Translations under genes and position numbers: made by a program
In this document: positions 19,116-38,529 of the stretch, piece after piece
Position numbering within the stretch: position 1 is the first letter of the stretch
How the letters are laid out: each line of letters begins with the position of its first letter
Sequence record: MK327931.1
DNA length: 64,000 nucleotides
From: Escherichia phage vB_EcoM_G17
Direction: 5' to 3' (one strand)
Notes under the pieces: generated by a model
Database searches by the model: none
What the model was told of the DNA's origin: nothing
Seen by the model: only the letters and a program-made list of their open reading frames with translations

Positions 19116-19535
19116 TCATTTACAGTTTTCTATAACTATTGCACGTTTTAGTATTTTACTTTCATAAACATACTTAAGATGACCTTCTTCACGAATACGA
19201 TTGAACACATATCCTAGTTTATCTTTTAGTACTGAAGCGGTATCAATGTCAAGATTAACTTCAACCCCTCCTGTTAATTTAACTTTATATGTAAAGCTAA
19301 AAGCATCACCAGATTCAACCAATGGGACTACTTGTTCATACGTATTCAACATAACTCGTTCATCATTAACTAAATTATATATTACTATATCACAAGTTTT
19401 TACCCCAATTTCCTCTAAGGTAGGAGCATTGTCTACTATAACATCTTTTACTGTATTAGCAACCTGTTTAGCATCTGCTGCATATACATTAAAACTAAAA
19501 AGTACTAAAATAATACTTAAAAAAATCTTTTTCAT
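19116..19535 (-). CDS. secreted protein (signal peptide)
   Basis: MKKIFLSIILVLFSFNVYAADA... Confidence 0.6.
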   Translation of the reverse strand: MKKIFLSIILVLFSFNVYAADAKQVANTVKDVIVDNAPTLEEIGVKTCDIVIYNLVNDERVMLNTYEQVVPLVESGDAFSFTYKVKLTGGVEVNLDIDTASVLKDKLGYVFNRIREEGHLKYVYESKILKRAIVIENCK

Positions 19536-19544
19536 TATATATCC

Positions 19545-19874
19545 TTATTTTATTTTACACGTCATATCGGGTTGTGCTGGTTTATTATTTTTAAACGGAT
19601 TAGGTTTTTTATCTTTCTTTTTATCTTTTAAAGGTTTTTTGTCTTCTTTTTTATCTTTATCTTTGTCTTTTTTATTTTTATCAGGTTCAGAGGGAGTATT
19701 ACATTGTGCTGGGGGTTGATTAGTTGGAGTACAGCTATTGTCTGATGGGAGTATTACTTCTTTACAATTGTAAAATAGTAAACTTTTATTTGTGGTTAAA
19801 TTATGAAAACGATAGTTACGTTCATTATTATAATAAATTGTTTTAGTACTTTCAATGTCATTACACATTGCCAC
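19545..19874 (-). CDS. hypothetical Lys/Asp-rich protein (109 aa)
   Basis: KDKDKDKKEDKK low-complexity tail. Confidence 0.5.
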   Translation of the reverse strand: MAMCNDIESTKTIYYNNERNYRFHNLTTNKSLLFYNCKEVILPSDNSCTPTNQPPAQCNTPSEPDKNKKDKDKDKKEDKKPLKDKKKDKKPNPFKNNKPAQPDMTCKIK

Positions 19875-19878
19875 GGAA

Positions 19879-20130
19879 TCACCGAAACTCTTTTTCTATT
19901 CCCATTACATCAGTCTTACGCTCAGATAGTATACCTGAAGTATATGAATCTTTGTTGTCAAACGCATTAAATCCAATAGTTCTGTCGGTGTCGTGTATTA
20001 TTCCTTTTGTGTATGAGGTAGTATAGAACTCCCCATTTCTGAAATCCTGCCTTGCTACGGAGCAATGATAATCTGCACCATAAGCAGTACTGGAAAATAA
20101 TACAATTCCAAATATAATATATTTTTTCAT
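19879..20130 (-). CDS. secreted protein (signal peptide)
   Basis: Start at MKKYIIFGIVLFSSTAYGA (RBS agaggg); the longer track ORF would run through the PeSL element. Confidence 0.55.
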   Translation of the reverse strand: MKKYIIFGIVLFSSTAYGADYHCSVARQDFRNGEFYTTSYTKGIIHDTDRTIGFNAFDNKDSYTSGILSERKTDVMGIEKEFR

Positions 20131-20164
20131 TGTAATCCCTCTTCTTAATTCCTCTTTTGTATTT

Positions 20165-20200
20165 ACAAAAAAAGGCTGACCGAAGTCAACCTTTAGTTTT
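20165..20200 (-). promoter_or_regulatory. PeSL-like stem-loop (copy 5)
   Basis: acaaaaaaaggctgaccgaagtcaaccttt. Confidence 0.55.
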
Positions 20201-20201
20201 A

Positions 20202-21746
20202 TCATTTACCGTATTTGCTCATGATGTCCTTTTCCCAATGAGTTACGTTACCGTTATCGTAATCTTTAAAGGAATTATCAAGAGTAGTTAATGCATATTC
20301 GTATGCTTCAGGTGATTCAATGTCAACATCATCAGCACCATTTACTAAATCAGTCCATGCTTTTTGTAGTTTACGAGCATTTTTACCAACATTACTTTTA
20401 ATCCAACTAATGTTTTTGTTGATACTCTTATTATCAGCACCAGCTTTTTTACCAATATCGGATATCCACATCATTAGCTTTTGGAGTTCATGAATGGAGT
20501 TGTCGTTCATTTCACGATCTTTAGCCAATTCTGCTTCCATGCCATCAGTATCAGTACCATCTTTAGAACCTACATCAATTCCATGTTTAGCTAATAGTTT
20601 ACCAAGTTCAAAGAATGCTGCCTCAGCAGGGAAGTCATAACCTTTGTCTTTGTAGTTGTTCCATGCACTATCAAACTCATCTACAAATCGGTTGGCATAA
20701 TCTGGATTGTCCACGAGAGCTTTGTACACTGCCATTGCATGTTCAAATCCTTCTTTGTCAGAACCAAACTCTCCCATTTCTGGACGATGAATGTAACCAT
20801 CCATATCAACAGTATCAGGTAAATCATCATGAGATGTTTCAGCATCTTTCTGGTCAACTGCACCTTCTTCATCTGCACGAACTAAGTAACCATCTTTTGA
20901 TACTTTCTCACCATGTTCAGCTTCATACTTTTTCATAGTATTGAATGCAGAATTCATAACAGTGATGAATCGAGACTTCTCACCTGGTGAGTAAGAATCT
21001 AATGCTGCTTTAATAGCATCATGTACTAATTGAATCTTATCATCTTTGCCTTCAAGACGATTTTCTAACTTAGCAAGAACATTCTTAACTTGCTGGGCGT
21101 TAGCACGGTCTTCTTTACCTATACGGTTAACAGTATGGAGGATGCTTTCAAGACTTGCTTCTTCAGCAGTCGCTTCTTCTTGTCCTTCAAGTGCACGCAT
21201 GATAGTACTGAATACTTCAGTTGGTTCAGTACTGGTATTTCCACTCATTGCATCAAGTACAGCTTGTGCTTTGACTTTTAATTCTTCTTTAGGTACAGAT
21301 TGCAATTCTTTCACAATACCTTGGATAAGTTGTGGTTTATTAGCAAAAATCTTACCTAACTTATCAGACAATTCTTTGACAGGGTTAACCGCCTTTGGTG
21401 CTTCTTGTTTTGGTTCTTCTTTCGCAGGAGAAGACTTTTCTTTTTCTTCACGTTCCATATCAGCTAGGCGTTGTTTTTGTGTAGCATTAAGAAGTCCCAA
21501 TGAATTAACATAACGTAGCTTTTCTAGCTCAGTCATGTTCTCAGTACTCTTAACTTCACCTGCTTCTGCGTTTGCTTTACCAGCTAGACCAGTTCCTTGG
21601 TTACGTGATCCACGTGAACCTTGACCTGCTTGATAACTATTTGGTCGGCGGTTGCGTTCACTCCATTTATCCGAGTGACCAGCCATGTTACCACCATTTT
21701 TATCAGTAAAATTACTTGGCATTTGATTTCTCTCCATAGATTTCAT
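20202..21746 (-). CDS. hypothetical Lys/Glu-rich protein (514 aa)
   Basis: Basic low-complexity N-terminus, YVNSLGLL motif shared with 21992..22375, acidic C-terminal half. Confidence 0.7.
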   Translation of the reverse strand: MKSMERNQMPSNFTDKNGGNMAGHSDKWSERNRRPNSYQAGQGSRGSRNQGTGLAGKANAEAGEVKSTENMTELEKLRYVNSLGLLNATQKQRLADMEREEKEKSSPAKEEPKQEAPKAVNPVKELSDKLGKIFANKPQLIQGIVKELQSVPKEELKVKAQAVLDAMSGNTSTEPTEVFSTIMRALEGQEEATAEEASLESILHTVNRIGKEDRANAQQVKNVLAKLENRLEGKDDKIQLVHDAIKAALDSYSPGEKSRFITVMNSAFNTMKKYEAEHGEKVSKDGYLVRADEEGAVDQKDAETSHDDLPDTVDMDGYIHRPEMGEFGSDKEGFEHAMAVYKALVDNPDYANRFVDEFDSAWNNYKDKGYDFPAEAAFFELGKLLAKHGIDVGSKDGTDTDGMEAELAKDREMNDNSIHELQKLMMWISDIGKKAGADNKSINKNISWIKSNVGKNARKLQKAWTDLVNGADDVDIESPEAYEYALTTLDNSFKDYDNGNVTHWEKDIMSKYGK

Positions 21747-21774
21747 TTTTTCTCTATGTCTATATTTATAGTAT

Positions 21775-21805
21775 AAAGAAAAGGCTGACCGAAGTCAACC
21801 TTATT
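21775..21805 (-). promoter_or_regulatory. PeSL-like stem-loop (copy 6)
   Basis: aaaaggctgaccgaagtcaacctta. Confidence 0.55.
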
Positions 21806-21808
21806 TTG

Positions 21809-21922
21809 TTACTTAGATTGTTCTTGTGCAGGTGGATTTACTTTTTGATCCACTACATAGAATACACCACCAACCAGTACTGCGGCGATGAGTGCAGCAA
21901 CTACAAATTTCAAACCTTGCAT
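21809..21922 (-). CDS. small membrane protein (37 aa), not in ORF track
   Basis: MQGLKFVVAALIAAVLVGGVFYVVDQK...; RBS gaggta. Confidence 0.35.
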   Translation of the reverse strand: MQGLKFVVAALIAAVLVGGVFYVVDQKVNPPAQEQSK

Positions 21923-21949
21923 ATATGATACCTCAGTTATATTGAGAAG

Positions 21950-21990
21950 TTATGATACAACAAAGGGCTGACCTTAGTCAACCCCTTTTT
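21950..21990 (-). promoter_or_regulatory. PeSL-like stem-loop (copy 7, loop variant)
   Basis: gggctgaccTTAGtcaacccc; minus strand TTGACT-N18-TATCAT. Confidence 0.5.
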
Positions 21991-21991
21991 A

Positions 21992-22375
21992 TTACTTCTT
22001 GAACTTATGTTTTTCACTTTCGATTGCATTCACGATTTCATCATGAATTTTACGAAGATTGTGAGTTTTCTTGAGAGAATCATGCAATGCACGGAATGCA
22101 GAGTGTACAGTTGCTTTAAAGTGCTCTTTAGGAGTTACTTTAAGTTTCTCGATAATATCACGTACATAGATTGGGTGATCTTCAAACACACGGTTTAGCT
22201 CGTGGCCTAGAGACTCTAGACTAAACGCTTTTTCACGTGAAGGACGATCATGTGCAAGACTTTGGTCAGGTTTTAGAAGACCTAGTGAATCTAGATATTT
22301 GTGCTTATGTGCATTGTCTAGACCAGAAATATCAACATCATGGGATGGATCTTTCTTATTCCATTTATCAACCAT
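21992..22375 (-). CDS. hypothetical protein (127 aa), N-terminal paralogue of 20202..21746
   Basis: Shares DKW...KYLDSLGLL motif. Confidence 0.6.
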   Translation of the reverse strand: MVDKWNKKDPSHDVDISGLDNAHKHKYLDSLGLLKPDQSLAHDRPSREKAFSLESLGHELNRVFEDHPIYVRDIIEKLKVTPKEHFKATVHSAFRALHDSLKKTHNLRKIHDEIVNAIESEKHKFKK

Positions 22376-22490
22376 TTTTATAACTCCTATAAGAGATAAA
22401 TTTTACTATAATATTTATAGTTCCTGTGTCATTTATATGAACTGACATAGAAAATTATATCATATTAAAAATGGTTGTCCCAAAGTTAAA

Positions 22491-22964
22491 TCAGTACTGA
22501 TCAAGTTCAGATGTAAAAATGAATGCATCCATGTCTTCCAACGTAAGTTTTAAGTCTGGTACGTACTTAAGAATAACGCACTCTGGCTTCTTAATAGCAG
22601 CTTGATAAGCAGCAATGGCAAGGGATTCCAACTGCTGTGCTGTATAATTTTTACGTTCTGCATTAAAAACTTTGTTTTTGATATCACCACCTGGGAGTTT
22701 TTCAAACTCACGCATAACTGCGGTAAGAACATCGTCAGCAGTGTTACTATATACCCATTGGGGTAATTGCATTACATTATAAATCACACCACTATCATCC
22801 ATCAAAGAGATCCATTTATATCCATCACTCGCACTAAACAAACGCCCTTTTAGTACTGTGTTATTAGTTAAATTTACAAATGCAAAAATATCTTGTTCGT
22901 TAAGTTCAATACTATTAACATTTACCCAACTCATTACGATTCCCCATTCATAAATCACGAACAA
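22491..22964 (-). CDS. hypothetical protein (157 aa)
   Basis: ORF in array. Confidence 0.55.
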   Translation of the reverse strand: MFVIYEWGIVMSWVNVNSIELNEQDIFAFVNLTNNTVLKGRLFSASDGYKWISLMDDSGVIYNVMQLPQWVYSNTADDVLTAVMREFEKLPGGDIKNKVFNAERKNYTAQQLESLAIAAYQAAIKKPECVILKYVPDLKLTLEDMDAFIFTSELDQY

Positions 22965-23544
22965 TATTCATTAAACACAATTTAGGTTTTATAGCATTCA
23001 ACACCCATATGCATTCTTTGTAAGTAGCTATTATATCATCTAAATGCTCAGTTACAATGCTTTCTTGAAAATATTCTTCATCATTGAGCTTTGCTAATTT
23101 AGTAACATCACACGTAGGCACTATAGGTCTGGATTGTACACCCATTCCATTATTGATATTAGTGAAATGTACAAAATGGTACTTCACAACACCTTTATCT
23201 AGATTTACTATACATGACAAGTTTTCCAACTCAGTTAGTTCTTTACTACAAGTAACATTAATGAAACCAGTATTATAGGCTCTATAATCATCTACTGATA
23301 TCTCAAAATCATTACGCTGAAATATAAGTGAAATGAGTTTGTCCAGTGGTTTTACATTCATATATTTTAATGAATTTACGTATGATACTTCAATCTTAGA
23401 TGAAATTATTTTTTTACTAAGTGCAGTCAATTCTTTATTAGATTTACCTGTTAATACTATAGGTTTAAACCTAGAACTCTTATTTTTCTTTGATACTTTA
23501 AAACGACCTTTACGATTCATATTTTCCTCAATTAATAATTTCAC
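22948..23544 (-). CDS. hypothetical protein (198 aa)
   Basis: ORF in array. Confidence 0.55.
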   Translation of the reverse strand: MKLLIEENMNRKGRFKVSKKNKSSRFKPIVLTGKSNKELTALSKKIISSKIEVSYVNSLKYMNVKPLDKLISLIFQRNDFEISVDDYRAYNTGFINVTCSKELTELENLSCIVNLDKGVVKYHFVHFTNINNGMGVQSRPIVPTCDVTKLAKLNDEEYFQESIVTEHLDDIIATYKECIWVLNAIKPKLCLMNIVRDL

Positions 23545-23749
23545 ATTTAACGTGTGGTTTATATAACATAATTAACCCATTTTTAAGTACAATGATTGTT
23601 CCTCGGTCAGTAATAGAAACGTTTTTAATTATACTTTTTTTATATGTTTCAACATATTTCTCTTCGTAATTTATACATTTAACATATTCTTTTTGTTTAG
23701 CACTTACAACAGTACTGAATAATATCAGTACAAGTACTATATATTTCAT
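23528..23749 (-). CDS. small secreted protein (73 aa)
   Basis: MKYIVLVLILFSTVVSA signal peptide. Confidence 0.55.
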   Translation of the reverse strand: MKYIVLVLILFSTVVSAKQKEYVKCINYEEKYVETYKKSIIKNVSITDRGTIIVLKNGLIMLYKPHVKCEIIN

Positions 23750-23801
23750 TACTATACCTTATAAACAAAAAGGAATTCATTTAAGAATTCCTATTTTACA
23801 A

Positions 23802-24095
23802 TCATTTATCTAACATACCATTGTGTAAACGTTCATATACTTCAGTTCGACGCAAATTCACAATATCTTCTGCGTATTTTAATGTAAATGCCCATGCTTT
23901 TGGATGTACGTTAAGCTTCATACGAATTCGATTTTTCATCAACTCTCCACTTAAACGAATAAATTCGTGTACACCACGACTACCGTATTCAGTAATTAAA
24001 TCATTAATGTACATATCACGAAGAGTTTCATCTGCACATTCTTTAACCATTTCTACGTCAGCGACGATGCTTTCATTAACTGAAGTACTGATCAT
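23802..24095 (-). CDS. hypothetical protein (97 aa)
   Basis: ORF in array. Confidence 0.5.
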   Translation of the reverse strand: MISTSVNESIVADVEMVKECADETLRDMYINDLITEYGSRGVHEFIRLSGELMKNRIRMKLNVHPKAWAFTLKYAEDIVNLRRTEVYERLHNGMLDK

Positions 24096-24106
24096 TTTAA
24101 TTTACC

Positions 24107-24373: not shown

Positions 24374-24387
24374 ATGTTATCCTCTAT

Positions 24388-25165: not shown

Positions 25166-25193
25166 AATTAAAATCCTCTAATTTATTAAGAGA

Positions 25194-25411: not shown

Positions 25412-25415
25412 AATA

Positions 25416-25766
25416 TCAATCCTTATATTTACACAAGCCACCAAAACTAGTTTCTTTAGCACCACGACGCATCATAACTAATTTAGCATATTGTGTGCCA
25501 TTACTATCTTCATATACATCTACTTCAATAAACGCTAAGAAGTTAGGGTCTGTGTCGTTAGAAAACTCAGTGAAGCTAATGTCGCCTACTGTATGCTCTT
25601 TAACAAACGTATATGATTGTCCATCAATATATACAATATCTCGATCGTCACTATCACCTTGATAGATATGTTTAATATTACCATCGGTACAAACTAAACC
25701 TTCCAATGGTTCAGCATATGACAATCCACACATTAACATACATACAAAAAATAAAATAATTTTCAT
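25416..25766 (-). CDS. secreted protein (signal peptide)
   Basis: MKIILFFVCMLMCGLSYAEP. Confidence 0.6.
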   Translation of the reverse strand: MKIILFFVCMLMCGLSYAEPLEGLVCTDGNIKHIYQGDSDDRDIVYIDGQSYTFVKEHTVGDISFTEFSNDTDPNFLAFIEVDVYEDSNGTQYAKLVMMRRGAKETSFGGLCKYKD

Positions 25767-25768
25767 GA

Positions 25769-26146
25769 TTATTTTCCTCCAACGTTAAGTGATTTCTTGT
25801 ACTGATATTCTTTATAAGTACTATACCATATATCACCAACGTAAATCAAGTACCACGTAGCAGGATAAAGAGCCAATCCAGTACTGATATATACGAACTT
25901 TTGGTCAAGGACATCAAATACATACAGAAGGAAAGTTACTCCCATAATGCAAGAACAAATTAACCACAAGTTATAAGCAATCGAATCGCAAGCAAAAATA
26001 GAATCAAGCTTAGAAATTAGGACATATTTGTTTGTTAAAATGAAATGAATTACTGCAACTAAACAATATCCTGCCATAAAAATAGAAATTAAAAAAGACA
26101 GAATAATTGGAATATTCAACAACAAAAGTAAAATAGTGTTTACCAT
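25769..26146 (-). CDS. membrane protein (125 aa)
   Basis: Multiple hydrophobic segments. Confidence 0.55.
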   Translation of the reverse strand: MVNTILLLLLNIPIILSFLISIFMAGYCLVAVIHFILTNKYVLISKLDSIFACDSIAYNLWLICSCIMGVTFLLYVFDVLDQKFVYISTGLALYPATWYLIYVGDIWYSTYKEYQYKKSLNVGGK

Positions 26147-26157
26147 TTTTTTAAGTC

Positions 26158-26517
26158 CTATATTTCACAGTGTAAGTTCAATTTATCTATATCTAGGTCA
26201 CGGCGTACCGATGAGTCCAAGTAAATTACTATATAGATATCACCATTACCAGTTCTTGGGTCTACAATTAATATTACGTTTGCTAATGTACCAGAATCAT
26301 CTCTATAAGTCGAGATTTTTTTATTACCGATAATACTTTCTACTTTAAAACGATAAATCACACCATCAACAACTATATTTTTACCATTTCTAGGGTCGTT
26401 AGTCAATACATGCCACGTTCCCTTAGTACTACGACAATATGTTTCTGCTGCTGCACCATAACTAAAACATGAAAATAATGCACACACAAGTGCTATTAAT
26501 TTTATATAACTCTTCAT
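26158..26517 (-). CDS. secreted protein (signal peptide)
   Basis: MKSYIKLIALVCALFSCFSYGAAA. Confidence 0.6.
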   Translation of the reverse strand: MKSYIKLIALVCALFSCFSYGAAAETYCRSTKGTWHVLTNDPRNGKNIVVDGVIYRFKVESIIGNKKISTYRDDSGTLANVILIVDPRTGNGDIYIVIYLDSSVRRDLDIDKLNLHCEI

Positions 26518-26595
26518 AACAAACCTCTAACGAGAAATACTTCTGTACTATATATATGTACAGAAGTATTTAATACTATAGAGATATTTTCACTG

Positions 26596-26922
26596 TTACA
26601 TCTTATTCGTGAACTTGAATTTGATAATATCAATCCAAATTTTAACATTTCCTGCAAATAGTGCTTTGATTAGCCACATAATTGCAACAAAGTTCTCAAC
26701 TAAATCCAAAGTTTTAACTACTGCACCGAGTGGGAAGATAAAACTCAAAACCCATACAATTACTGAAACCACAACGACTGTATAGAAAATACGCACAATC
26801 GGTGAATCAAGCATAAACAACTCAGAGAACTCTTTTTTATCATTATCATCAGTAATAAAGCATTCGTAAACCAGAAGCCAAATCAGAATTAAAGACGGAA
26901 TTGAAATTAGTACTGATAGCAT
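26596..26922 (-). CDS. membrane protein (108 aa)
   Basis: Hydrophobic segments. Confidence 0.55.
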   Translation of the reverse strand: MLSVLISIPSLILIWLLVYECFITDDNDKKEFSELFMLDSPIVRIFYTVVVVSVIVWVLSFIFPLGAVVKTLDLVENFVAIMWLIKALFAGNVKIWIDIIKFKFTNKM

Positions 26923-26968
26923 ATTTTTTACCTCAAGTTTAAGTGTTAAGTTTCAGACTACAGGAACC

Positions 26969-26996
26969 ATTATACAGTACTACGAACGTTTGTCAA
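26969..26996 (-). promoter_or_regulatory. sigma70-like promoter TTGACA-N16-TATAAT
   Basis: Minus strand: TTGACAaacgttcgtagtactgTATAAT. Confidence 0.55.
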
Positions 26997-27222
26997 CATT
27001 TGTTTCTTCAATAAGCATAAGATAACTTAACACGAAGAGTAATACCGAAATAATATCAATAACTGTAAAGCTCACTGGAATGATAATAGACACCAGTACT
27101 AATGCCACGTTTAGCAAGAATACAGTAGTGAGATCTACCATCGTTCGTCTAGTGGCTAATGCCACTAGTGTAGGATAGAACATAAACAATAGTGCAACAA
27201 CAAAACTTAGTACTAGATACAT
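26980..27222 (-). CDS. small membrane protein (80 aa)
   Basis: Two hydrophobic segments. Confidence 0.5.
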   Translation of the reverse strand: MYLVLSFVVALLFMFYPTLVALATRRTMVDLTTVFLLNVALVLVSIIIPVSFTVIDIISVLLFVLSYLMLIEETNVDKRS

Positions 27223-29273: not shown

Positions 29274-29424
29274 ATTAGTCCTTAGAATAATTTATTAATA
29301 ATAATAGCACCCAAACCAAGTACTGCAATAATTGCAGATACCCACATTACCGCGTTCACTGCACCTGTGAGTTCTTTATCAAACTCTCGGCACTTCTTGC
29401 GGTAATCTTCCCACTCTTTGTTAT

Positions 29425-29640
29425 TCACACTACCACTCCTAATAGGTCGGTAGCTTTCTTGAGAACTACATCAATCGTTTCCAGTACTGCACCTTTGTGT
29501 TCAATTGATACAATATTATTATAAGTATCAAGGTCCAAGTACTCCATATATTCTGTTTTGAATACACGAACTTCAGTACTGGTGATTTTAATATCACAAC
29601 CTTTATCCCAAATAACCTGCATCATTTCATTGGTAGTCAT
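29425..29640 (-). CDS. hypothetical protein (71 aa)
   Basis: ORF in array. Confidence 0.5.
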   Translation of the reverse strand: MTTNEMMQVIWDKGCDIKITSTEVRVFKTEYMEYLDLDTYNNIVSIEHKGAVLETIDVVLKKATDLLGVVV

Positions 29641-29915
29641 TATTCAACCTTATCATAAACAAGTTTGTGTGTGCTTAGTACTTTGTTGTGATGTCCAGGG
29701 CATTCATATACATACAATCGCTCCTGACGTTTTTCCCAACCACCACAGATACGACCTGATTGTGTACATATTTCATACTCGTTAATAAAAGACTTGCCTG
29801 TGAATGTACAATCCTGACGAACTAAGTCTTTTGCACTAAACCTGCCGTCATCATTACATGCTGTAAGAAACATTGTACAGAATACAAAGACAACTGTCAA
29901 TAGTTTTTTAATCAT
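29640..29915 (-). CDS. putative lipoprotein
   Basis: MIKKLLTVVFVFCTMFLTAC lipobox-like. Confidence 0.6.
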   Translation of the reverse strand: MIKKLLTVVFVFCTMFLTACNDDGRFSAKDLVRQDCTFTGKSFINEYEICTQSGRICGGWEKRQERLYVYECPGHHNKVLSTHKLVYDKVE

Positions 29916-30280
29916 TGAATATCACCCCAACGGAAACCTTTCATATAATTCAAATTCACCTCAACTAGTTCATGTGTTTTTGTACACCAAATGGAGAGAG
30001 TTTTTGTAACATCACCAGGTTCAGATTCATAATTCACACAATAACCTTCAATGCGTAGAGTTTTGTTAGTCCAATGTTCCCACTCAATCCAAATTTCATT
30101 TGGATAATAAACCATATCTTCTTTGAACGTATGGAATTGATCCATTGGTAAATGACCTTTAACTTCAATTACTTCAGCACTTCGAGCCAGTTTTTCAAGC
30201 TTGTACTTTATTTCAGCAAGATATTCTTCATCATTCAGACGAGTGAATAAATCTGTTGCACGGGTTGTATCAAGGCTCAT
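29912..30280 (-). CDS. hypothetical protein (122 aa)
   Basis: ORF in array. Confidence 0.55.
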   Translation of the reverse strand: MSLDTTRATDLFTRLNDEEYLAEIKYKLEKLARSAEVIEVKGHLPMDQFHTFKEDMVYYPNEIWIEWEHWTNKTLRIEGYCVNYESEPGDVTKTLSIWCTKTHELVEVNLNYMKGFRWGDIQ

Positions 30281-30528
30281 TGTTGTACTCCATTAATCAC
30301 TGAAGTGTTGATTCGTGTTTTTCCGCTAGTGTATCCAGTACTGGTGTTTGCATTAGGACAATAAACTGTATACAACGTTGCACCAGCACCTTCCTGTTGC
30401 ATACGATAAATCTTACATCCTGCTTCTTTTAATTCAGTAGGGAGTTCAAAATCACTTGTGCGTTCTTTGGTTGAAGCATCACATGCAGTGAGTAAAAATG
30501 CGACGAGTACTGCTACAATGTATTTCAT
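30277..30528 (-). CDS. putative lipoprotein
   Basis: MKYIVAVLVAFLLTAC lipobox-like. Confidence 0.6.
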   Translation of the reverse strand: MKYIVAVLVAFLLTACDASTKERTSDFELPTELKEAGCKIYRMQQEGAGATLYTVYCPNANTSTGYTSGKTRINTSVINGVQQ

Positions 30529-30929: not shown

Positions 30930-30958
30930 ATTATACTGCTATTATTCAGTACTGTCAA
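30930..30958 (-). promoter_or_regulatory. sigma70-like promoter TTGACA-N17-TATAAT
   Basis: Minus strand: TTGACAgtactgaataatagcagTATAAT; shares tttgatataaacattata block with 31279 promoter. Confidence 0.55.
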
Positions 30959-31248: not shown

Positions 31249-31278
31249 TTGTTAAAGTGGATTTCGTTTGATATAAAC

Positions 31279-31403: not shown

Positions 31404-31622
31404 TTAATCGATAATTTTATATTCACGATGACCATAGAAGCCAGCTTCAAGGATGCGATTACCATCAGCATCTTCCAAGTCCCAACCACGGGATGTTTCG
31501 GCAATAATAGTCATGATGTGACCTCTTGGGAAAATTCCACTCAGAGTGGATACATCCTCAAGTAATTGAACTTTCTTTCCAACATTGGAATTCGGTTTAA
31601 ACATTTTATGGCCCTTATTCAT
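31404..31622 (-). CDS. hypothetical protein (72 aa)
   Basis: ORF in array. Confidence 0.5.
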   Translation of the reverse strand: MNKGHKMFKPNSNVGKKVQLLEDVSTLSGIFPRGHIMTIIAETSRGWDLEDADGNRILEAGFYGHREYKIID

Positions 31623-31797
31623 TGATCACATCAAGTACTTTGTCCAGCTTTTTACCAATACTTTCCTTTGGTTTCTCACCATTCTGGAATACATTAGTAC
31701 TGCAATACTCAGGACGCGTATTAGGAAACTTCTCGTTCATCCAGGAGTGACCGTAAACACCCAGCATGATGCCAACGATAAGAATGATAATTTGCAT
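31615..31797 (-). CDS. small membrane protein (60 aa)
   Basis: N-terminal hydrophobic segment. Confidence 0.45.
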   Translation of the reverse strand: MQIIILIVGIMLGVYGHSWMNEKFPNTRPEYCSTNVFQNGEKPKESIGKKLDKVLDVINE

Positions 31798-31812
31798 GAT
31801 AATTTCCTCTGA

Positions 31813-32601: not shown

Positions 32602-32832
32602 TTACATTATTCCTTCTATGCAACAACCAAGAATTACTTTTTTAACTTCAACAACTCGTACCAAATAGAATCCATTTGAAAAGTTAAAACTATACATTTG
32701 TACTAAGGCATCTGCTTCAGATTTCGCACGGATACATGATAGATAAATTTCACGTATATCATCATCCAACGATACTTGTTTCTCTGCATTGATGACAATA
32801 GAACGAATCTCAAAACTAACACCATAACTCAT
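32602..32832 (-). CDS. hypothetical protein (76 aa)
   Basis: ORF in array. Confidence 0.5.
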   Translation of the reverse strand: MSYGVSFEIRSIVINAEKQVSLDDDIREIYLSCIRAKSEADALVQMYSFNFSNGFYLVRVVEVKKVILGCCIEGIM

Positions 32833-33038
32833 TGAGTTTGTCCTACAATAAGCTTTGTGTTAGTATTACTATTGTAACACCACATTTGTTCTTTATTAAC
32901 TGTAATCCAAATATCTTTGTTTACTTGTTCGTATGTACTATCACGTACTGCTATGCATTGATTCATGGAATTCATTGGGGTTATTTGTATACCGGAATTA
33001 ACAGAGAAAGCGACTACTAAAAAGATTACTGAATTCAT
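32829..33038 (-). CDS. small secreted protein (69 aa)
   Basis: MNSVIFLVVAFSVNSG signal-like N-terminus. Confidence 0.5.
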   Translation of the reverse strand: MNSVIFLVVAFSVNSGIQITPMNSMNQCIAVRDSTYEQVNKDIWITVNKEQMWCYNSNTNTKLIVGQTQ

Positions 33039-33102
33039 TGGATATTCCTTAATGGTTAATCATCCATCTCTTCGAGATGTCTGTTCGCTTCTAATACTAC
33101 GT

Positions 33103-33131
33103 ATTCTACGCGAATGATTAATAACTGTCAA
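33103..33131 (-). promoter_or_regulatory. sigma70-like promoter TTGACA-N17-TAGAAT
   Basis: Minus strand: TTGACAgttattaatcattcgcgTAGAAT upstream of 32829..33038. Confidence 0.5.
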
Positions 33132-33655
33132 GGACTTTTAATATTGACGGGATTTGAGGAAGGGATTTTTCTTCCCCCCACAAGGAGGGAAATTTGACGC
33201 TGATGGTATCAGAGCTATTGCATTGAAGATTACTCATAACGAGTGCGAAAGCGGGTCATCCTGTTTCTCTCTACTTCAGTTTCATATGACGGTCTACACT
33301 TTTAAACATAGTGTATCTTCATTAAGTATCTATGCAATCAAATACTTAATGTGAGTACTCAAATTTTGGACGCAACTTTCCTGTACAAAATTCGATAACT
33401 CTCCCTTAGATAATTCGTAAGGTGTTATCCTTATATGTCTATCAAGGAACCACCAGCTATCCTAACGTGGTTCTTTATACAGCCGCATTGCCGTGAGGGG
33501 TTCAAACTATGCCCACATCTAACGGGTTTCTTTTGCTGTTCGCACTGTCGGACTGCTCAACTGCCCTCTACGTTTTCGAGTGGATCAGGTACATGAATAT
33601 CATGCCAACAGAATTGTACAAGATAATTATATCACAAACTTTTACTTCATCCCAT
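33132..33655. other. ORF-free island with raised GC; candidate structured non-coding RNA (strand undetermined)
   Basis: About 530 bp without credible ORF in a very dense genome; GC-rich stretches (cgcactgtcggactgctcaactgccctc); ends at a bidirectional terminator. Confidence 0.35.
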
Positions 33656-33690
33656 AAAAAAAGGTTGGCATAAGCCAACCTTTTTTCTTT
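33656..33690. terminator. bidirectional rho-independent terminator
   Basis: aaaaaaaGGTTGGCataaGCCAACCttttttcttt. Confidence 0.75.
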
Positions 33691-34654: not shown

Positions 34655-34675
34655 TTACATCTCCTAATGACGAAA

Positions 34676-35173
34676 TCAAAATCGATATACATTAATATTA
34701 TCATCTGTGAAGCAATCATGGTTATGCACATCCATGAAAGTACTAAACACTTTATCATATAAAGTTGTATGTTCTTCATGAATAGCAGCATCTAGCATGT
34801 ATTCTCCACCACTACCCATAAAGAAAGTGTAGTCTTCATGTAGATATTCAAGTTTTTTAATAAACTTTCCTTTAGTTAAAATCATATGAATAACATAATC
34901 TTTAGAAAGAAGCACACAATGGCAACTTAACTTTCTGTCAGGTATAACTGGTACTTTATTAATTAACCAATCCAGTACTTTATCAATTTCACTTACTGAC
35001 CCACTAGCACTGAATAAACGGTCATGTACATATAAAGTTTTTTGATTAACAACTCCATATTGATATTTTGGTCTTAGTGGGAAAAAACCAAATAAGTTTC
35101 GTGGTATAGTTGACGTAACTCTAGAATCGGTAATCAATAAATTTAATCGTTTATCAATATAAACAGTTGTCAT
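34676..35173 (-). CDS. hypothetical protein (165 aa), immediately downstream of sigma gene
   Basis: ORF in array. Confidence 0.55.
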   Translation of the reverse strand: MTTVYIDKRLNLLITDSRVTSTIPRNLFGFFPLRPKYQYGVVNQKTLYVHDRLFSASGSVSEIDKVLDWLINKVPVIPDRKLSCHCVLLSKDYVIHMILTKGKFIKKLEYLHEDYTFFMGSGGEYMLDAAIHEEHTTLYDKVFSTFMDVHNHDCFTDDNINVYRF

Positions 35174-35174
35174 A

Positions 35175-35594
35175 TTAAACCTTATCTAAGAATTTATCGT
35201 ATATATAAAATTCTTTATCGGTGAATACATTAATTCTAGTATCGAATCTTTGCATCGTGTTCATATACAATGAACTTTTTAAATAAAAATACAAAGCAAC
35301 AAATTCTGATATATGCATATTCTTTTTATTGTTACATAAATTCTTTAGCATTTTGATGCTATCAAATTCTTCTTTATCAAATCTGTACTGGTAAAAATTG
35401 TATCTATTGGAACGGCACTCATAGATACGAAGTGCCATTATATCAATACATTCTTTAGATTTACAGTACTTATTCAATACGTCATAATCACCCGTACATA
35501 ATGCTACAAAGATTTTATGTGCAAGCGTAGCTTTGCCCTCAATCGTATAATAGCCAAAGAATTTAATGATTAAGTACTGAATGAATGTAATCAT
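35175..35594 (-). CDS. hypothetical protein (139 aa)
   Basis: ORF in array. Confidence 0.55.
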   Translation of the reverse strand: MITFIQYLIIKFFGYYTIEGKATLAHKIFVALCTGDYDVLNKYCKSKECIDIMALRIYECRSNRYNFYQYRFDKEEFDSIKMLKNLCNNKKNMHISEFVALYFYLKSSLYMNTMQRFDTRINVFTDKEFYIYDKFLDKV

Positions 35595-35599
35595 TTGAT

Positions 35600-35860
35600 T
35601 TAGAATTTCTCCGAAATTACTAGAGTGTCATCATAATCTTCTGCAATCTCATGAAGAACTTTTAAGTTACTTTCACCAGAAACGCTTTGTACTTCGTTCA
35701 AAAGATAGTTTAGATCAACTTTAGTTACTTTTTCTGAATCAAATACACAGAAAGTCAATTCAGCGTTTGGACAGATCTTCTTCAGATTATCAGCAACAAC
35801 TTGTTTGAAGTTGAAAGATGGGGAAGCAACCAGGTTAACTGCAACGAGAATAGATTTCAT
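35600..35860 (-). CDS. hypothetical protein (86 aa)
   Basis: ORF in array. Confidence 0.5.
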   Translation of the reverse strand: MKSILVAVNLVASPSFNFKQVVADNLKKICPNAELTFCVFDSEKVTKVDLNYLLNEVQSVSGESNLKVLHEIAEDYDDTLVISEKF

Positions 35861-35934
35861 AATGTTTTCCTTTTTAGCTGATAATTAAATTAGGAGCACA
35901 TTGTACTCCATATTATTTGTTATGTAAAATACTT

Positions 35935-36186
35935 TTAGATACCAAGTGCAGTAGATAACTCTTTACGTTTGTTATATGAATCAGATTCAATCTTACTTTT
36001 CTTGTTGAAAAGGGATTCAATATCCTTATAGATTGCTTCGATAGATTTAGTTACTACCCATTCTGATTCTTGAAGCATACCTTGGAGTCGTGCGTACTCA
36101 ACTTTAATAGTACTGCGAAGTTCTTCACAAACTTCTTCATTCTTAATTAGTGCAGCACTAAGTTCTTTGACCTTATCGATGTTCAT
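35935..36186 (-). CDS. hypothetical protein (83 aa)
   Basis: ORF in array. Confidence 0.5.
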   Translation of the reverse strand: MNIDKVKELSAALIKNEEVCEELRSTIKVEYARLQGMLQESEWVVTKSIEAIYKDIESLFNKKSKIESDSYNKRKELSTALGI

Positions 36187-36245
36187 AAGTTCCTTACTCT
36201 AATTTGTTTTTAACAAAATAATTATATATAACATACTAAATTATG

Positions 36246-36671
36246 TCAAGTATTTTTAGTACCTTCTTCTGCCATTTTTGTGATATACCAATTAAGTACT
36301 GATTTGTGTACCATAAAAAATGTGAATGCAAATATAGCAATAGCTGCTGATGTAACACTATTAGATAATGACCCAAGTTGGATGTTAGTACCTAAAATAA
36401 CAATAAATGGATACAACACAATTAATCTACTGTAAGGTTCGTCTCCAGTATCACGGAGAAATACAAGCCTTTCATGATCAGTATCCATTGTGACAATTGA
36501 ACAGAACATAAGTGCAGACATAAGAGCAATACCAATTTGTGCTACATTAGAAATTGTAAACCACAAAGGATTTAAACCATATGAAATATTATTTTCTGTA
36601 CAGTAGTAACCAAACGAATTGAATGCACAAACTAAAAATACAAAAATACAAATCTTATTATAACCTCTCAT
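36246..36671 (-). CDS. polytopic membrane protein (141 aa)
   Basis: Multiple hydrophobic segments. Confidence 0.55.
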   Translation of the reverse strand: MRGYNKICIFVFLVCAFNSFGYYCTENNISYGLNPLWFTISNVAQIGIALMSALMFCSIVTMDTDHERLVFLRDTGDEPYSRLIVLYPFIVILGTNIQLGSLSNSVTSAAIAIFAFTFFMVHKSVLNWYITKMAEEGTKNT

Positions 36672-37090
36672 TTGTTTAGCTCCGTTAATTTTCGTTTAAC
36701 TTCTAGATCATGAAACTCATCTGCATATGAGTTTTGAACAGTTCTGATGTATTCCAACATAACAAACATAGTTCCACATACCCATAGATATGTATAGTAA
36801 TCAAATACAAATGCATATAACATACACGGTACTAAAATGAAAGTGTAAACAAAACTATATCGTGTAGTTCCAAATACTTTCAGATATAACAAACGTCTAT
36901 AATCACGGGCAAATGTATTGATGCACACTGAAAATGTAATTAATGTATACCATGAAATACCCTGAATTAAACCTGAAACATTTAAAAGTTTATGTTCATC
37001 GGAAAACCCCAGTGCATTTAGCACTGGAGCCATAACCCAACCAATAATACTAATAAGAAAAAGATATTTTGCATTACTTAGTGTGAACAT
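36668..37090 (-). CDS. polytopic membrane protein (140 aa)
   Basis: Multiple hydrophobic segments. Confidence 0.55.
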   Translation of the reverse strand: MFTLSNAKYLFLISIIGWVMAPVLNALGFSDEHKLLNVSGLIQGISWYTLITFSVCINTFARDYRRLLYLKVFGTTRYSFVYTFILVPCMLYAFVFDYYTYLWVCGTMFVMLEYIRTVQNSYADEFHDLEVKRKLTELNK

Positions 37091-37091
37091 A

Positions 37092-37550
37092 TTACTTTAG
37101 TCCCCATGCTTTTTTGATTGCATCAACAGAGTTTTGGTCCACTACTTCCTTTTTTTCTGATGTAGTTTGAAGTTTATTAATTACATATTCCTTTGCATCT
37201 TTTTCTATCATAAATTTACCATCAACCAACACACCAAAAACTTTAGAATTTCGGGCTGGATATGGATTAATTTCATCAAGAGTACGGACTTTCTTATCAA
37301 CTATAATGGCTTTGATGTAACCAGTTTCAAGTACTGTTGTAATCACAGTCATTTCAATTGCAACTGGTGAATCTTCCCAATACGCAATCCATTTAGTAAA
37401 GCTACGATCAGGTGAATCTTTTGTGCATTTTAATTTAATTGCACTATTAAAAATGTATTGTTTAAAATTGTCATCGACAACTTCACTAATACTAAAATAA
37501 CCTTCACGCTCTTCAACATTACGTTTGAAATTTGTAGCTAATACATCCAT
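37092..37550 (-). CDS. hypothetical protein (152 aa)
   Basis: ORF in array. Confidence 0.55.
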   Translation of the reverse strand: MDVLATNFKRNVEEREGYFSISEVVDDNFKQYIFNSAIKLKCTKDSPDRSFTKWIAYWEDSPVAIEMTVITTVLETGYIKAIIVDKKVRTLDEINPYPARNSKVFGVLVDGKFMIEKDAKEYVINKLQTTSEKKEVVDQNSVDAIKKAWGLK

Positions 37551-37591
37551 TTTCCATCCCCCTTGGGTTACTTGGTGTGTTAATTATAATA

Positions 37592-38068
37592 CTAAGAATC
37601 TTTGTTGTCAAACTTTTCCCTCAAATATTTTTCTATTAATCTAATTTGTGTTGGTGGTAAGATAAAGTAATCGTACATAGATTTACTACCATGTATCGAA
37701 CAACCTACACTAATACTATAATCATATGGATATAAGTATATTGGGTCTTGTATATCAGGTATGAAAACTATTCTTGATATATTACCATTTCCTATTCTTA
37801 CTTGGACGTTATCATTATTATTAAGATAATTTCTTATACAGTACTCAATTATACCATTTACTTTAGAATCATAACCATAATTTTTATATTCAGGAAAAAT
37901 GAAATAGCGTTCATGGTATAGATATGAGCATAGTAACGCTGGGAAAAAATTCCAAAATCCTTCATGTTTTGCAATTGTTTGTGCATATTTAAAATGATTA
38001 GCATTACTAAAAATATTATACAGCACAAAATACACAAATGGACTTACCAACAACACTATTGTTAACAT
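37592..38068 (-). CDS. hypothetical protein with N-terminal TM (158 aa)
   Basis: MLTIVLLVSPFVYFVLYNIF hydrophobic N-terminus. Confidence 0.55.
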   Translation of the reverse strand: MLTIVLLVSPFVYFVLYNIFSNANHFKYAQTIAKHEGFWNFFPALLCSYLYHERYFIFPEYKNYGYDSKVNGIIEYCIRNYLNNNDNVQVRIGNGNISRIVFIPDIQDPIYLYPYDYSISVGCSIHGSKSMYDYFILPPTQIRLIEKYLREKFDNKDS

Positions 38069-38529
38069 CAGAAGCCTCTGTATTTTTCATACACTTCAAC
38101 GCATTCCATGATTTTGTCATCGTCCATCATATCATAGCCTTGTAGAAATTCTTCTTTATCAACCTTCCCTGCCATCATGTCTGTGTCAGAAATTCTGGAG
38201 TCATAGAAGGAATACATATCTTTATAGTACTGGTTTTTGTGCTGCTCAATCTTTACTTTAGCATATCCAGCACAAAATGAAGGAGATTTAACAACTTCCC
38301 ATTTATGCTTCTTGATGGGTTTATCATTAGCATGTTTTTCTCTGTATGTCTGACGATAACGTTCACGCATTTCAGGCATGTATTCTTCAGCAGTACGTTT
38401 AGGGGGAGTTTTACCAGTCCCAATAGTTTTAATAGTTTGACGTTGTTCTTCTGCGTGTACTGGGGAAATAAAACATGATGTACCAAACAGTACTGCTACG
38501 ATAACCATAAAATTCTTAAACATAATCAA
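38068..38529 (-). CDS. secreted protein (signal peptide)
   Basis: MIMFKNFMVIVAVLFGTSCFISPVHA. Confidence 0.6.
   Translation of the reverse strand: MIMFKNFMVIVAVLFGTSCFISPVHAEEQRQTIKTIGTGKTPPKRTAEEYMPEMRERYRQTYREKHANDKPIKKHKWEVVKSPSFCAGYAKVKIEQHKNQYYKDMYSFYDSRISDTDMMAGKVDKEEFLQGYDMMDDDKIMECVEVYEKYRGF

What the first reader, a model, noticed from the sequence alone, without database searches (positions are those of the whole stretch)
19116..38529. Dense cluster of small secreted and lipoprotein ORFs
At least nine ORFs (19116, 19879, 23528, 25416, 26158, 29640, 30277, 32829, 38068) begin with signal-peptide-like sequences, two with a lipobox-like LTAC. They are interleaved with small membrane proteins. 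This implies an envelope-directed accessory repertoire and a Gram-negative host.
Basis: partly seen in the sequence, partly recalled or inferred. Interest (0 to 1): 0.5.

Follow-up and report, generated by a model that had tools for sequence, protein, structure and literature searches.

The report
Early exported-protein cluster in jumbo coliphage
A 19-kb stretch of the early region of the 350-kb E. coli phage Sharanji really does encode at least eight small proteins that are sent to the periplasm or lipid-anchored to a membrane, plus about nine tiny membrane proteins. Their function is untested; the best guess is that they alter the infected cell's envelope, for example to keep out other phages.

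Summary
The window is Escherichia phage Sharanji (Asteriusvirus, 100% identity), host E. coli K-12.

Of the nine ORFs named:
- Eight carry canonical export signals. gp145, gp147, gp153, gp159, gp161 and gp191 look like signal peptidase I substrates. gp172 and gp174 are lipoproteins with LTAC.
- The ninth, gp181, is ambiguous.

The signals persist in homologues only 31-51% identical. The mature parts have paired cysteines. Chance expectation is under 0.5 per 47 ORFs; nine were flagged (p about 1e-6 genome-wide).

The block lies in the host-RNA-polymerase early region and contains five perfect sigma-70 promoters. The phage's spanin pair is elsewhere.

- gp174 belongs to a lipoprotein family found in 584 phage records, mostly with Asp at +2 (inner-membrane retention). 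It is not Cor; that label is a signal-peptide artefact.

The likeliest role is early envelope modification or superinfection exclusion, by the logic of T4 Spackle/Imm and T5 Llp. This is inferred, not shown.

The parts
38068..38523 (-). gp191, 151 aa. Secreted protein; predicted cleavage ...SPVHA|EEQRQ; 2 Cys in the mature part.
   Evidence: Signal-peptide scan. Signal conserved in UE-S1 and vB_Ec-M-J. Restricted to Asteriusvirus relatives. Weak syntenic similarity to the signal-bearing GAP32_477.
37592..38068 (-). gp190, 158 aa, with an N-terminal membrane anchor.
   Evidence: Hydropathy. Only 42% identity in vB_Ec-M-J.
36246..37090 (-). gp188 and gp187, two small polytopic membrane proteins (140 and 141 aa).
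   Evidence: Hydropathy. gp188 matches phrog_15839 'membrane protein'. Both are conserved to RaK2.
32829..33038 (-). gp181, 69 aa. Possible but atypical export signal (no Lys/Arg); 2 Cys.
   Evidence: An 11/12 sigma-70 promoter lies at 33131-33103 just upstream.
31615..31797 (-). gp178, 60 aa, N-terminal transmembrane helix.
30930..30958 (-). Perfect sigma-70 promoter (TTGACA-17-TATAAT) ahead of the gp175-gp169 gene string, which contains both lipoprotein genes.
30277..30528 (-). gp174, 83 aa lipoprotein. Lipobox LTAC, Asp at +2; 2 further conserved Cys.
   Evidence: Lipobox. Family present in 584 phage records. Lipobox Cys in 62/62 and Asp+2 in 40/62 relatives. Not Cor. No PDB fold match.
29640..29915 (-). 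gp172, 91 aa lipoprotein. Lipobox LTAC, then NDD; 4 further Cys.
   Evidence: Found in Asteriusvirus and Munch-like Salmonella jumbo phages only.
29282..29428 (-). gp170, 48 aa, C-terminal transmembrane helix.
25416..27222 (-). Conserved five-gene block gp163 (2 hydrophobic segments, about 2-3 TM), gp162 (3 TM), gp161 (secreted barrel), gp160 (about 3 TM), gp159 (secreted barrel). A perfect sigma-70 promoter lies at 26996-26969, overlapping the 3' end of gp163 and so driving gp162-gp158. A terminator lies at 25228-25205, just past gp158.
23528..23749 (-). gp153, 73 aa. Secreted; cleavage ...VVSA|KQKE; Cys near both ends of the mature part.
   Evidence: Absent from UE-S1; 51% identity in vB_Ec-M-J.
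21809..21922 (-). gp149, 37-aa single-pass membrane peptide.
19879..20130 (-). gp147 with corrected start, 83 aa. Secreted; cleavage ...TAYG|ADYH.
19116..19535 (-). gp145, 139 aa. Secreted; cleavage near ...NVYA|ADAK; 2 Cys, one next to the C-terminus.
   Evidence: Two allelic forms among relatives, at least 99% or about 41% identical, both with a signal peptide.

Best explanation
The region is part of the early, host-RNA-polymerase-transcribed arm of jumbo coliphage Sharanji.

Soon after infection it makes at least eight small proteins that leave the cytoplasm through Sec:
- Six appear to be cleaved by signal peptidase I and released into the periplasm, probably stapled by one disulfide each (gp147, with a single Cys, is the exception).
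- Two (gp172, gp174) appear to be lipid-modified at the lipobox Cys. gp174's Asp at +2 should keep it on the periplasmic face of the inner membrane.
- About nine co-transcribed mini membrane proteins sit alongside them.

Together they form a fast-evolving, dispensable envelope module. I judge its most likely job to be changing the infected cell's envelope so that later-arriving phages cannot enter, and so that the wall is protected until programmed lysis. That is the logic of T4 Spackle/Imm and T5 Llp.

Within this picture, the gp159/gp161 beta-barrels, each paired with a small 3-TM protein, are the best candidates for periplasmic binders or inhibitors of a wall-degrading enzyme such as a tail lysozyme.

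Shown here: the export signals, their conservation, the clustering, the early-promoter context and the barrel fold. Inferred: actual export, timing of expression, the targets and the exclusion phenotype.
For: Identity and host.

Export signals:
- Rule-based scan with 8/8 positive controls and a 0.3-0.9% false-positive rate.
- Signals and cleavage motifs kept in homologues of 31-51% identity, and the lipobox kept in the 87-100% identical relatives of gp172 and gp174.
- Lipobox Cys in 62/62 and Asp+2 in 40/62 gp174 relatives.
- Two or four Cys in the mature part of 7 of 8 proteins, invariant in the barrel family.

Clustering: p = 1.3e-6 genome-wide.

Early context:
- Five 12/12 sigma-70 promoters on the coding strand within the region.
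- 31 such promoters in the genome, all on that strand and most of them in the left 120 kb, against about 1 expected.
- The equivalent sigma-factor region of relative CBB was proposed to be early (PMC5259590).

Not lysis genes: the Rz-like i-spanin gp447 and the lipoprotein gp446 lie at record 272-273 kb.

Fast evolution: envelope proteins have median 76% identity to vB_Ec-M-J against 88% for cytoplasmic neighbours (p = 0.009), with presence/absence variation.

Barrel fold:
- pLDDT 80.5.
- The pairing of a TM gene with a barrel gene occurs three times.
- The phage has its own tail lysozyme, gp372/gp373.

Precedent: T4 Spackle is an early, signal-cleaved, disulfide-bonded 75-aa periplasmic inhibitor of the gp5 lysozyme (PMC7677548).
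Against: - No dedicated predictor (SignalP/LipoP) and no experiment.
- No protein here has sequence homology to any characterised exclusion protein. PHROG, Pfam and NCBIfam give only unknown-function families or sub-threshold hits.
- The Cor hint is an artefact.
- The PliC resemblance is at fold level only. hhalign probability is 0.1%, Foldseek ranks a lipocalin-like protein first at E = 0.04, and 8-stranded barrels are common and serve many functions.
- The MliC SGxxY/KG motifs are not present in register.
- The gp174 model is mediocre (pLDDT 72) and matches nothing.
- Early timing rests on promoter consensus alone.
- Sharanji's receptor is unknown (PMC11895373).
Confidence: 0.5

Rival explanations
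1. Lysis-timing control. Some of the secreted or membrane proteins act like T4 RI/RIII antiholins, or restrain the membrane-tethered (SAR-type) endolysin described for Rak2-like phages. They would set when and where the wall is breached rather than excluding other phages.
For: - The Rak2-like endolysin has an N-terminal TM domain (PMC5259590).
- The PliC-like barrel fold would suit a lysozyme binder.
- Sharanji-infected cells filament and bulge before bursting (PMC11895373).
Against: - The genes sit behind consensus sigma-70 promoters in the early arm. They are far from the spanin pair at record 272-273 kb and from the lysozymes at 200-203 kb.
- There is no homology to RI, holins or antiholins.
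Confidence: 0.15
2. Host-envelope takeover or counter-defence unrelated to other phages. The exported proteins would inhibit or re-purpose host periplasmic or membrane factors (proteases, envelope-stress sensors, cell-division or wall synthesis, membrane-bound abortive-infection effectors). Alternatively they would mask receptors on debris so that progeny are not lost.
For: - Rapid divergence and presence/absence variation are typical of host-interaction genes.
- Barrel folds of this type include T6SS immunity and protease-inhibitor proteins (BtaiB, staphostatin).
- Infected cells filament and bulge (PMC11895373).
Against: Nothing links any member to a specific host target. The same data fit superinfection exclusion equally well. 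The only characterised precedents I compared against (T4 Spackle and Imm, T5 Llp, T1 Cor) all act in exclusion.
Confidence: 0.25
3. Chance or annotation artefact. The hydrophobic N-termini arise from AT-rich codon usage or from wrongly chosen start codons.
For: - The genome is 31-37% G+C.
- Two annotated starts are doubtful (gp147 and gp181), and other annotators truncated gp159, gp161 and gp181.
Against: - False-positive rate under 1% on shadow ORFs of the same genome.
- Shine-Dalgarno motifs lie ahead of the signal-bearing starts.
- Signals are conserved where the sequence is not.
- Conserved Cys pairs.
- No hit among the 94 other genes of the window.
Confidence: 0.03

Closest known systems
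T4 Spackle (gp61.3)
   Same: A small early phage protein with a cleaved export signal and a disulfide. It acts in the periplasm by binding the tail lysozyme of incoming phages (PMC7677548). That matches the size, the promoter-inferred early timing, the export and the Cys pairing of gp145, gp153, gp159, gp161 and gp191.
   Different: Spackle is an alpha-helical bundle, whereas gp159 is modelled as an all-beta barrel. No sequence similarity appeared in any PHROG or Pfam search. No lysozyme binding was tested.
MliC/PliC periplasmic lysozyme inhibitors (Pfam MliC family)
   Same: - Size of about 90-100 aa.
- Periplasmic location.
- 8-stranded beta-barrel.
- A Cys near each end.
   Different: - No profile similarity (hhalign 0.1%; Pfam none; PDB profile search none).
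- The lysozyme-inserting SGxxY and KG motifs do not align.
- Foldseek does not rank them first.
- The bacterial proteins target animal c-type lysozymes.
T5 Llp and T1/phi80/N15 Cor exclusion lipoproteins
   Same: Small (about 60-aa mature) phage lipoproteins with an internal disulfide. T5 Llp is made shortly after infection (bioRxiv 10.64898/2026.03.26.714494). This is the same general architecture as gp174 and gp172.
   Different: [quoted passage not shown] T1 Cor has Ser at +2, the usual outer-membrane sorting residue.
- gp174 has Asp at +2, the inner-membrane retention signal.
- hhalign of the gp174 family against T1 Cor aligns only the 22-residue signal peptide.
- gp174 is not next to a receptor-binding gene.
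T4 Imm (Pfam PF14373, Imm_superinfect)
   Same: A small polytopic inner-membrane protein made early, like gp160, gp162, gp163, gp187 and gp188. Annotators of vB_Ec-M-J labelled two extra small membrane genes in this same region 'immunity to superinfection'.
   Different: No Sharanji protein matches the family. Even EcMJ_535 scores E = 0.014, below the Pfam cut-off.

Membership tests
Sec signal peptide, signal peptidase I type | Positively charged n-region, uncharged hydrophobic core of about 7-15 residues, small residues at -3/-1, and no further TM segment. | tested here: met
   Met by gp145, gp147 (from the internal start), gp153, gp159, gp161 and gp191. The feature is conserved in divergent homologues. 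gp181 lacks the positive charge. SignalP itself could not be run.
Bacterial lipoprotein (PROSITE PS51257 lipobox) | [LVI][ASTVI][GAS]C at the end of a signal peptide, with the Cys conserved. | tested here: met
   gp172 and gp174 both have LTAC. The Cys is present in 62/62 gp174 relatives, mostly within L(A/V/S/T)GC. The Cys residues of gp161 and gp191 that fit the pattern are not conserved, so those two are not lipoproteins.
Inner-membrane-retained lipoprotein (Lol avoidance) | Asp at position +2 of the mature lipoprotein. | tested here: met
   gp174 reads C-D-A-S. Asp+2 occurs in 40/62 relatives and Asn in 11. gp172 has Asn+2 then Asp+3, which is indeterminate. Actual localisation is not testable here.
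Cor superinfection exclusion protein (phrog_1119) | Homology of the mature domain to Cor. | tested here: not met
   The PHROG hit is E = 0.0046 over residues 1-48 only. hhalign against T1 Cor aligns only the signal peptide, 22 columns. T1 Cor has Ser+2 and lies beside tail genes.
T5 Llp | Fold or sequence similarity to the solved Llp structure. | tested here: inconclusive
MliC/PliC lysozyme inhibitor | Sequence membership: Pfam MliC model and the SGxxY / KGxE motifs. | tested here: not met
   - Pfam: no hit at E <= 1.
- hhalign against an MliC/PliC alignment: probability 0.1%.
- Exhaustive profile search: only about 12 small orphan clusters, plus repeat-protein hits that I judge spurious.
MliC/PliC lysozyme inhibitor | 8-stranded antiparallel beta-barrel with a Cys near each end. 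| tested here: met
MliC/PliC lysozyme inhibitor | Inhibition of a lysozyme. | not testable with these tools
   Needs an enzyme assay with hen egg-white lysozyme and with the gp372/gp373 lysozyme domains.
Two-component spanin (o-spanin lipoprotein) | A lipoprotein gene adjacent to or embedded in an i-spanin gene with an N-terminal TM helix. | tested here: not met
   The upstream neighbours gp173 and gp175 have no TM segment. The real pair is elsewhere: gp447 (Rz-like spanin, phrog_1152, E = 6.6e-29) with lipoprotein gp446.
T4 Spackle / T4 Imm | Sequence homology to the T4 proteins. | tested here: not met
   No PHROG, Pfam or NCBIfam match for any Sharanji protein of the region.

The most novel reading that the evidence does not exclude
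Rak2-like jumbo phages carry a previously undescribed two-part exclusion module: a small 3-TM inner-membrane protein paired with a PliC-like periplasmic beta-barrel. It is duplicated two to three times per genome. It would neutralise the peptidoglycan-cutting tail enzymes, or another periplasmic step, of incoming phages. In parallel, the gp174 family would be a widespread inner-membrane-anchored lipoprotein of virulent enterobacterial and Vibrio phages that blocks genome entry at the inner membrane. That would be a new class of exclusion factor, distinct from the outer-membrane receptor blockers Cor and Llp.
Probability: 0.2. Interest if true: 0.75.

Novelty: new variant of a known kind. Interest (0 to 1): 0.5.

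Why it matters
Jumbo phages are mostly 'hypothetical proteins'. This work assigns a cellular destination, and from promoter context a likely expression time, to 17 or so of them. It also narrows them to a testable role.

If the barrel-plus-membrane pairs or the gp174 lipoprotein family exclude other phages, several things follow:
- They would be new exclusion mechanisms.
- gp174 relatives occur in 584 phage records, including Felixounavirus and rV5-like phages.
- They would bear on how phages behave when combined in cocktails.

The work also corrects annotations: the start of gp147, the 'Cor' label, and the lipobox look-alikes in gp161 and gp191.

Tried and rejected
- **gp185 as a tenth secreted protein.** Rejected. 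Its RaK2 homologue has a charged, non-hydrophobic N-terminus (MKDILIAVDGS...), which to my eye resembles a universal stress protein.
- **gp161 and gp191 as lipoproteins.** Rejected. The Cys is not conserved and a better AXA site follows it.
- **Motif echo between gp159 (SNGTQY...RRGAKET) and MliC (SGARY...SKGDEAT).** Rejected by hhalign.
- **Cor membership of gp174.** Rejected.
- **Spanin role.** Rejected.
- **'Immunity to superinfection' labels in vB_Ec-M-J.** Sub-threshold.
- **Giant cadherin, Big_11 and FG-GAP proteins hit by the barrel profile.** Many short partial stretches per protein, which I judge to be repeat-driven rather than homology.
- **The Pfam label PF16225 attached to gp174 relatives in the protein database.** My own Pfam scans could not reproduce it.
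- **Length-greedy ORF caller.** It lost gp145 to a shadow ORF and was replaced by a codon-likelihood version.
- **AFDB50 fold library.** Unavailable.
- **Papers on Sharanji, phAPEC6, fEgEco12, and the Iyer et al. jumbo-phage review.** None discusses these genes.
Full report
**Identity and context**

The 20 kb around the finding is 100% identical to Escherichia phage Sharanji. This is OR545507.1, a 350,079-bp Asteriusvirus isolated on E. coli K-12 MG1655. The region is about 97% identical to 121Q, PBECO4 and slurp01. Window coordinate equals record coordinate minus 47,777. The finding spans gp145 to gp191, which is 47 annotated genes, all on the minus strand. All are 'hypothetical' except the sigma factor gp182.

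**Are the signal peptides real?**

SignalP and LipoP were not available. I wrote a rule-based scan with these criteria:
- Lys/Arg in the n-region.
- An uncharged hydrophobic core.
- Small residues at -3/-1.
- No later TM segment.
- A PROSITE-type lipobox, for lipoproteins.

The scan found all eight E. coli control signal peptides. Applied to the 141 annotated proteins of the window, it flagged classical cleavable signals only inside the finding: gp145, gp153, gp159, gp161, gp172, gp174 and gp191, plus gp147 when read from an internal ATG.

The internal start of gp147 (window 20130) is supported by three things:
- The PHROG profile is 83 aa long.
- vB_Ec-M-J has no start codon upstream.
- A terminator hairpin sits inside the annotated N-terminal extension, followed by a Shine-Dalgarno motif and the ATG.

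Three further calls on individual proteins:
- gp181 has only a 10-residue hydrophobic stretch and no positive charge, so I call it ambiguous.
- gp185 scored weakly but is rejected, because its RaK2 homologue starts MKDILIAVDGS.
- The lipobox-like Cys of gp161 and gp191 is not conserved, and a better AXA site follows it. These two are therefore signal peptidase I substrates.

**Independent support for export**
- The signals survive where the sequence does not. gp145 at 41% identity, gp153 at 51%, gp159 at 42% (RaK2) and gp161 at 31% (RaK2) all keep an n-h-c signal with an AXA-type site.
- All 22 database relatives of the gp159/gp161 family have such a signal.
- Seven of the eight have two or four Cys in the mature part. 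In gp145, gp153, gp159 and gp161, one Cys lies towards the N-terminal end (positions 4-8; position 29 of 120 in gp145) and one within five residues of the C-terminus. This is as expected for proteins that fold in the oxidising periplasm.
- Hydrophobic cores are 8-13 residues long, which is signal-peptide length rather than membrane-anchor length.

**Is the clustering more than chance?**
- Within the window the count is 8 of 47 against 0 of 94, p about 1e-4.
- I assembled the whole genome from seven fetched pieces and called 566 ORFs with a codon-likelihood model. Of those, 17 were flagged, and 9 lie in the region's 47 ORFs (hypergeometric p = 1.3e-6).
- After curation I count eight true exported proteins in the region (5.5% of the genome) and about four elsewhere: gp091, gp446, gp472 and gp488.
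- The scan's false-positive rate is 2/566 on reversed sequences, 8/2830 on shuffled sequences and 2/233 on shadow ORFs of the same AT-rich genome. Fewer than 0.5 hits were therefore expected.

**Expression context**

Five perfect TTGACA-N16/17-TATAAT promoters lie on the coding strand inside the region, in or next to intergenic spacers. Their window positions are 37611, 36249, 31306, 30958 and 26996. Several 11/12 sites are also present.

Genome-wide there are 31 perfect sites. All are on the minus strand, and most lie in the left 120 kb. About one was expected in shuffles. For the relative CBB, RpoD-like promoters concentrated around the sigma-factor gene were likewise read as marking the early region (PMC5259590).

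The promoter at 30958 precedes the string gp175-gp169, which holds both lipoproteins. The promoter at 26996 precedes gp162-gp158. Early timing is inferred from these promoters, not measured.

**What the proteins are**

PHROG places every member in unknown-function families. Pfam and NCBIfam give nothing above threshold.

*The gp159/gp161 family*
- gp159 and gp161 are paralogues. vB_Ec-M-J carries a third copy (EcMJ_541).
- The family occurs only in Rak2-like jumbo phages: 22 clusters in the word-indexed search, and about a dozen small proteins in an exhaustive profile search of 1.84 billion representatives.
- The other hits in that search were cadherin, Big_11 and FG-GAP giants matched by many short partial stretches. 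I judge these repeat-driven rather than homologous.
- An AlphaFold2 model of mature gp159 has pLDDT 80.5 and pTM 0.69. It is an eight-stranded all-beta protein.
- Foldseek is weak and ranks a lipocalin-like protein first.
- hhalign against an MliC/PliC alignment finds nothing.

The family therefore works like a small periplasmic barrel of the PliC/lipocalin type. It is not a demonstrable member of MliC/PliC.

Each barrel gene directly follows a small membrane-protein gene with about three predicted TM segments. The block gp163-162-161-160-159 keeps its order in RaK2 (ORF263-267). The extra barrel of vB_Ec-M-J overlaps its membrane partner by 4 nt. This points to a two-part membrane-and-periplasm module.

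*The gp174 family*
- gp174 belongs to a lipoprotein family detected by tblastn in 584 phage records. These include other Rak2-like phages, Felixounavirus, rV5-like Vequintavirinae, about 114-kb Vibrio phages and Acinetobacter phages. In every record listed the match is annotated 'hypothetical', 'Phage protein' or not at all.
- In 62 relatives the lipobox Cys is invariant. Two further Cys and an LPxE...C(K/Q)IY...VVxCP pattern are conserved. Position +2 is Asp in 40 and Asn in 11.
- Asp at +2 is the E. coli Lol-avoidance signal (established knowledge). Most members should therefore stay on the outer face of the inner membrane.
- The 'Cor' label given to the vB_Ec-M-J homologue and the weak PHROG hit come from the signal peptide alone. 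hhalign against T1 Cor aligns only 22 signal-peptide columns, and T1 Cor has Ser at +2.

*The remaining members*
- gp145, gp172 and gp191 are confined to Asteriusvirus and a few neighbours.
- gp145 exists as two allelic forms, at least 99% or about 41% identical to the Sharanji copy.

**What they are not**

The phage's spanin pair is at record 272-273 kb. It consists of gp447 (Rz-like, E = 6.6e-29) and the lipoprotein gp446. The neighbours of gp172 and gp174 have no TM helix. The lysozyme genes are at record 200-203 kb.

**Evolution**

Envelope-directed genes are more divergent from vB_Ec-M-J than their cytoplasmic neighbours: median 76% against 88% identity, Mann-Whitney p = 0.009. Four of them (gp145, gp147, gp149, gp153) are missing from UE-S1. 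Relatives carry other signal-bearing genes at the same locus. This is the pattern of accessory genes under conflict.

**Mechanism**

*Shown*
- Export signals.
- Their conservation across divergent homologues.
- The clustering.
- The consensus early promoters.
- The barrel fold.
- The pairing of membrane genes with barrel genes.

*Inferred*
- Soon after infection the proteins are exported by Sec.
- Six are released into the periplasm and two are lipid-anchored.
- Together with the mini membrane proteins they alter the envelope.

The closest characterised precedents are:
- T4 Spackle, which is early, signal-cleaved, disulfide-bonded and inhibits the incoming tail lysozyme (PMC7677548).
- T4 Imm.
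- T5 Llp.

I therefore favour superinfection exclusion and wall protection, at about 0.5. Host-envelope takeover or counter-defence (0.25) and lysis-timing control (0.15) are live rivals.

**Known or new?**

The papers I read on Sharanji, phAPEC6 and fEgEco12 and one jumbo-phage review do not mention these genes. The CBB paper only counts lipoproteins and membrane proteins.

**Verdict**

This is a new variant of a known kind of system and is moderately interesting.

Noticed in passing
window 11917, 13331, 14613, 19108, 20193, 21802, 25227 (minus strand); also record position 26568: A repeated terminator-promoter cassette. The hairpin (A/G)GGTTGACTTCGGTCAGCC(C/T)T has a UUCG loop, and its stem contains TTGACT as a -35 box. 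It is followed by TTTTG(C/T)TATAAT at promoter spacing. There are eight copies, all on the coding strand.
   Followed up: partly
whole genome (record 1-350079); window sites 16378, 26996, 30958, 31306, 36249, 37611, 39457, 46327, 54212, 54759, 56619: There are 31 perfect sigma-70 consensus promoters, all on the minus strand and most of them in the left 120 kb. About one was expected by chance. They outline the early arm of the genome.
   Followed up: partly
window 313-7283 (+): Seven tandem paralogues, gp112-gp118, share the N-terminus MLPF(A/G)RM(V/I)KYGN. One is annotated as an RCC1-repeat protein. The preceding plus-strand genes gp106-gp111 (left of the window) are of similar size but were not compared.
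   Followed up: no
window 48704-50638 (-): A family of 54-59-aa mini-proteins starting MTHEEW(M/I) (gp218-220, gp226, gp227), interspersed with the tRNA genes.
   Followed up: no
window 8239-11019 and 17024-18059 (-): Two arrays of small (about 105-125 aa, one of 141) membrane proteins with mostly three predicted TM segments: gp120-127 and gp140-142. Sequence paralogy was detected only for gp126/gp127 and gp140/gp141/gp142. Similar arrays of 3-TM proteins are annotated in GAP32 (GAP32_522-526).
   Followed up: no
window 33039-33688: A 650-nt gene-free gap between the sigma-factor gene and gp181. UE-S1 annotates a terminator and a repeat region just after its sigma gene, at the start of the corresponding gap. 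No Rfam family matches.
   Followed up: partly
window 18405-19079 (-): gp144 is labelled a protein kinase in the SHEFM2K, CRJP21 and UE-S1 records. A terminator-promoter cassette and Shine-Dalgarno motif suggest that its true start is the downstream ATG (MTKQEIF...), as annotated in SHEFM2K.
   Followed up: no
window 19545-19868 (-): gp146 is a Cys- and Lys/Asp-rich low-complexity protein with no export signal. It is present or absent together with the secreted gp145 and gp147: all three are missing from UE-S1.
   Followed up: no
L006 31221-31457, 33246-33509 and 33506-33802 (vB_Ec-M-J): This relative has extra small membrane genes labelled 'immunity to superinfection' (Pfam Imm_superinfect only E = 0.014). 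It also has a third barrel paralogue at the same locus. None of these was found in the Sharanji window.
   Followed up: partly
proteins P0001-P0093 (gp174 relatives): The protein database tags nearly all gp174 relatives with Pfam PF16225. My own Pfam scans of gp174 and seven relatives at E <= 10 do not return that family.
   Followed up: partly
window 47693-47784 (-): ARAGORN and the GenBank record call a tRNA-Ser with anticodon ACT, which is unusual. The corresponding tRNA in vB_Ec-M-J is annotated Ser(GCT).
   Followed up: no
L008 13518-13820 (GAP32_477) versus window 38068-38523: A signal-bearing 100-aa GAP32 protein lies at the syntenic position, just after the gp193 homologue. It shares a C(S/A)GYA motif region with gp191 (27% over 33 aa, E = 3e-4 pairwise). 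It may be a distant homologue.
   Followed up: partly
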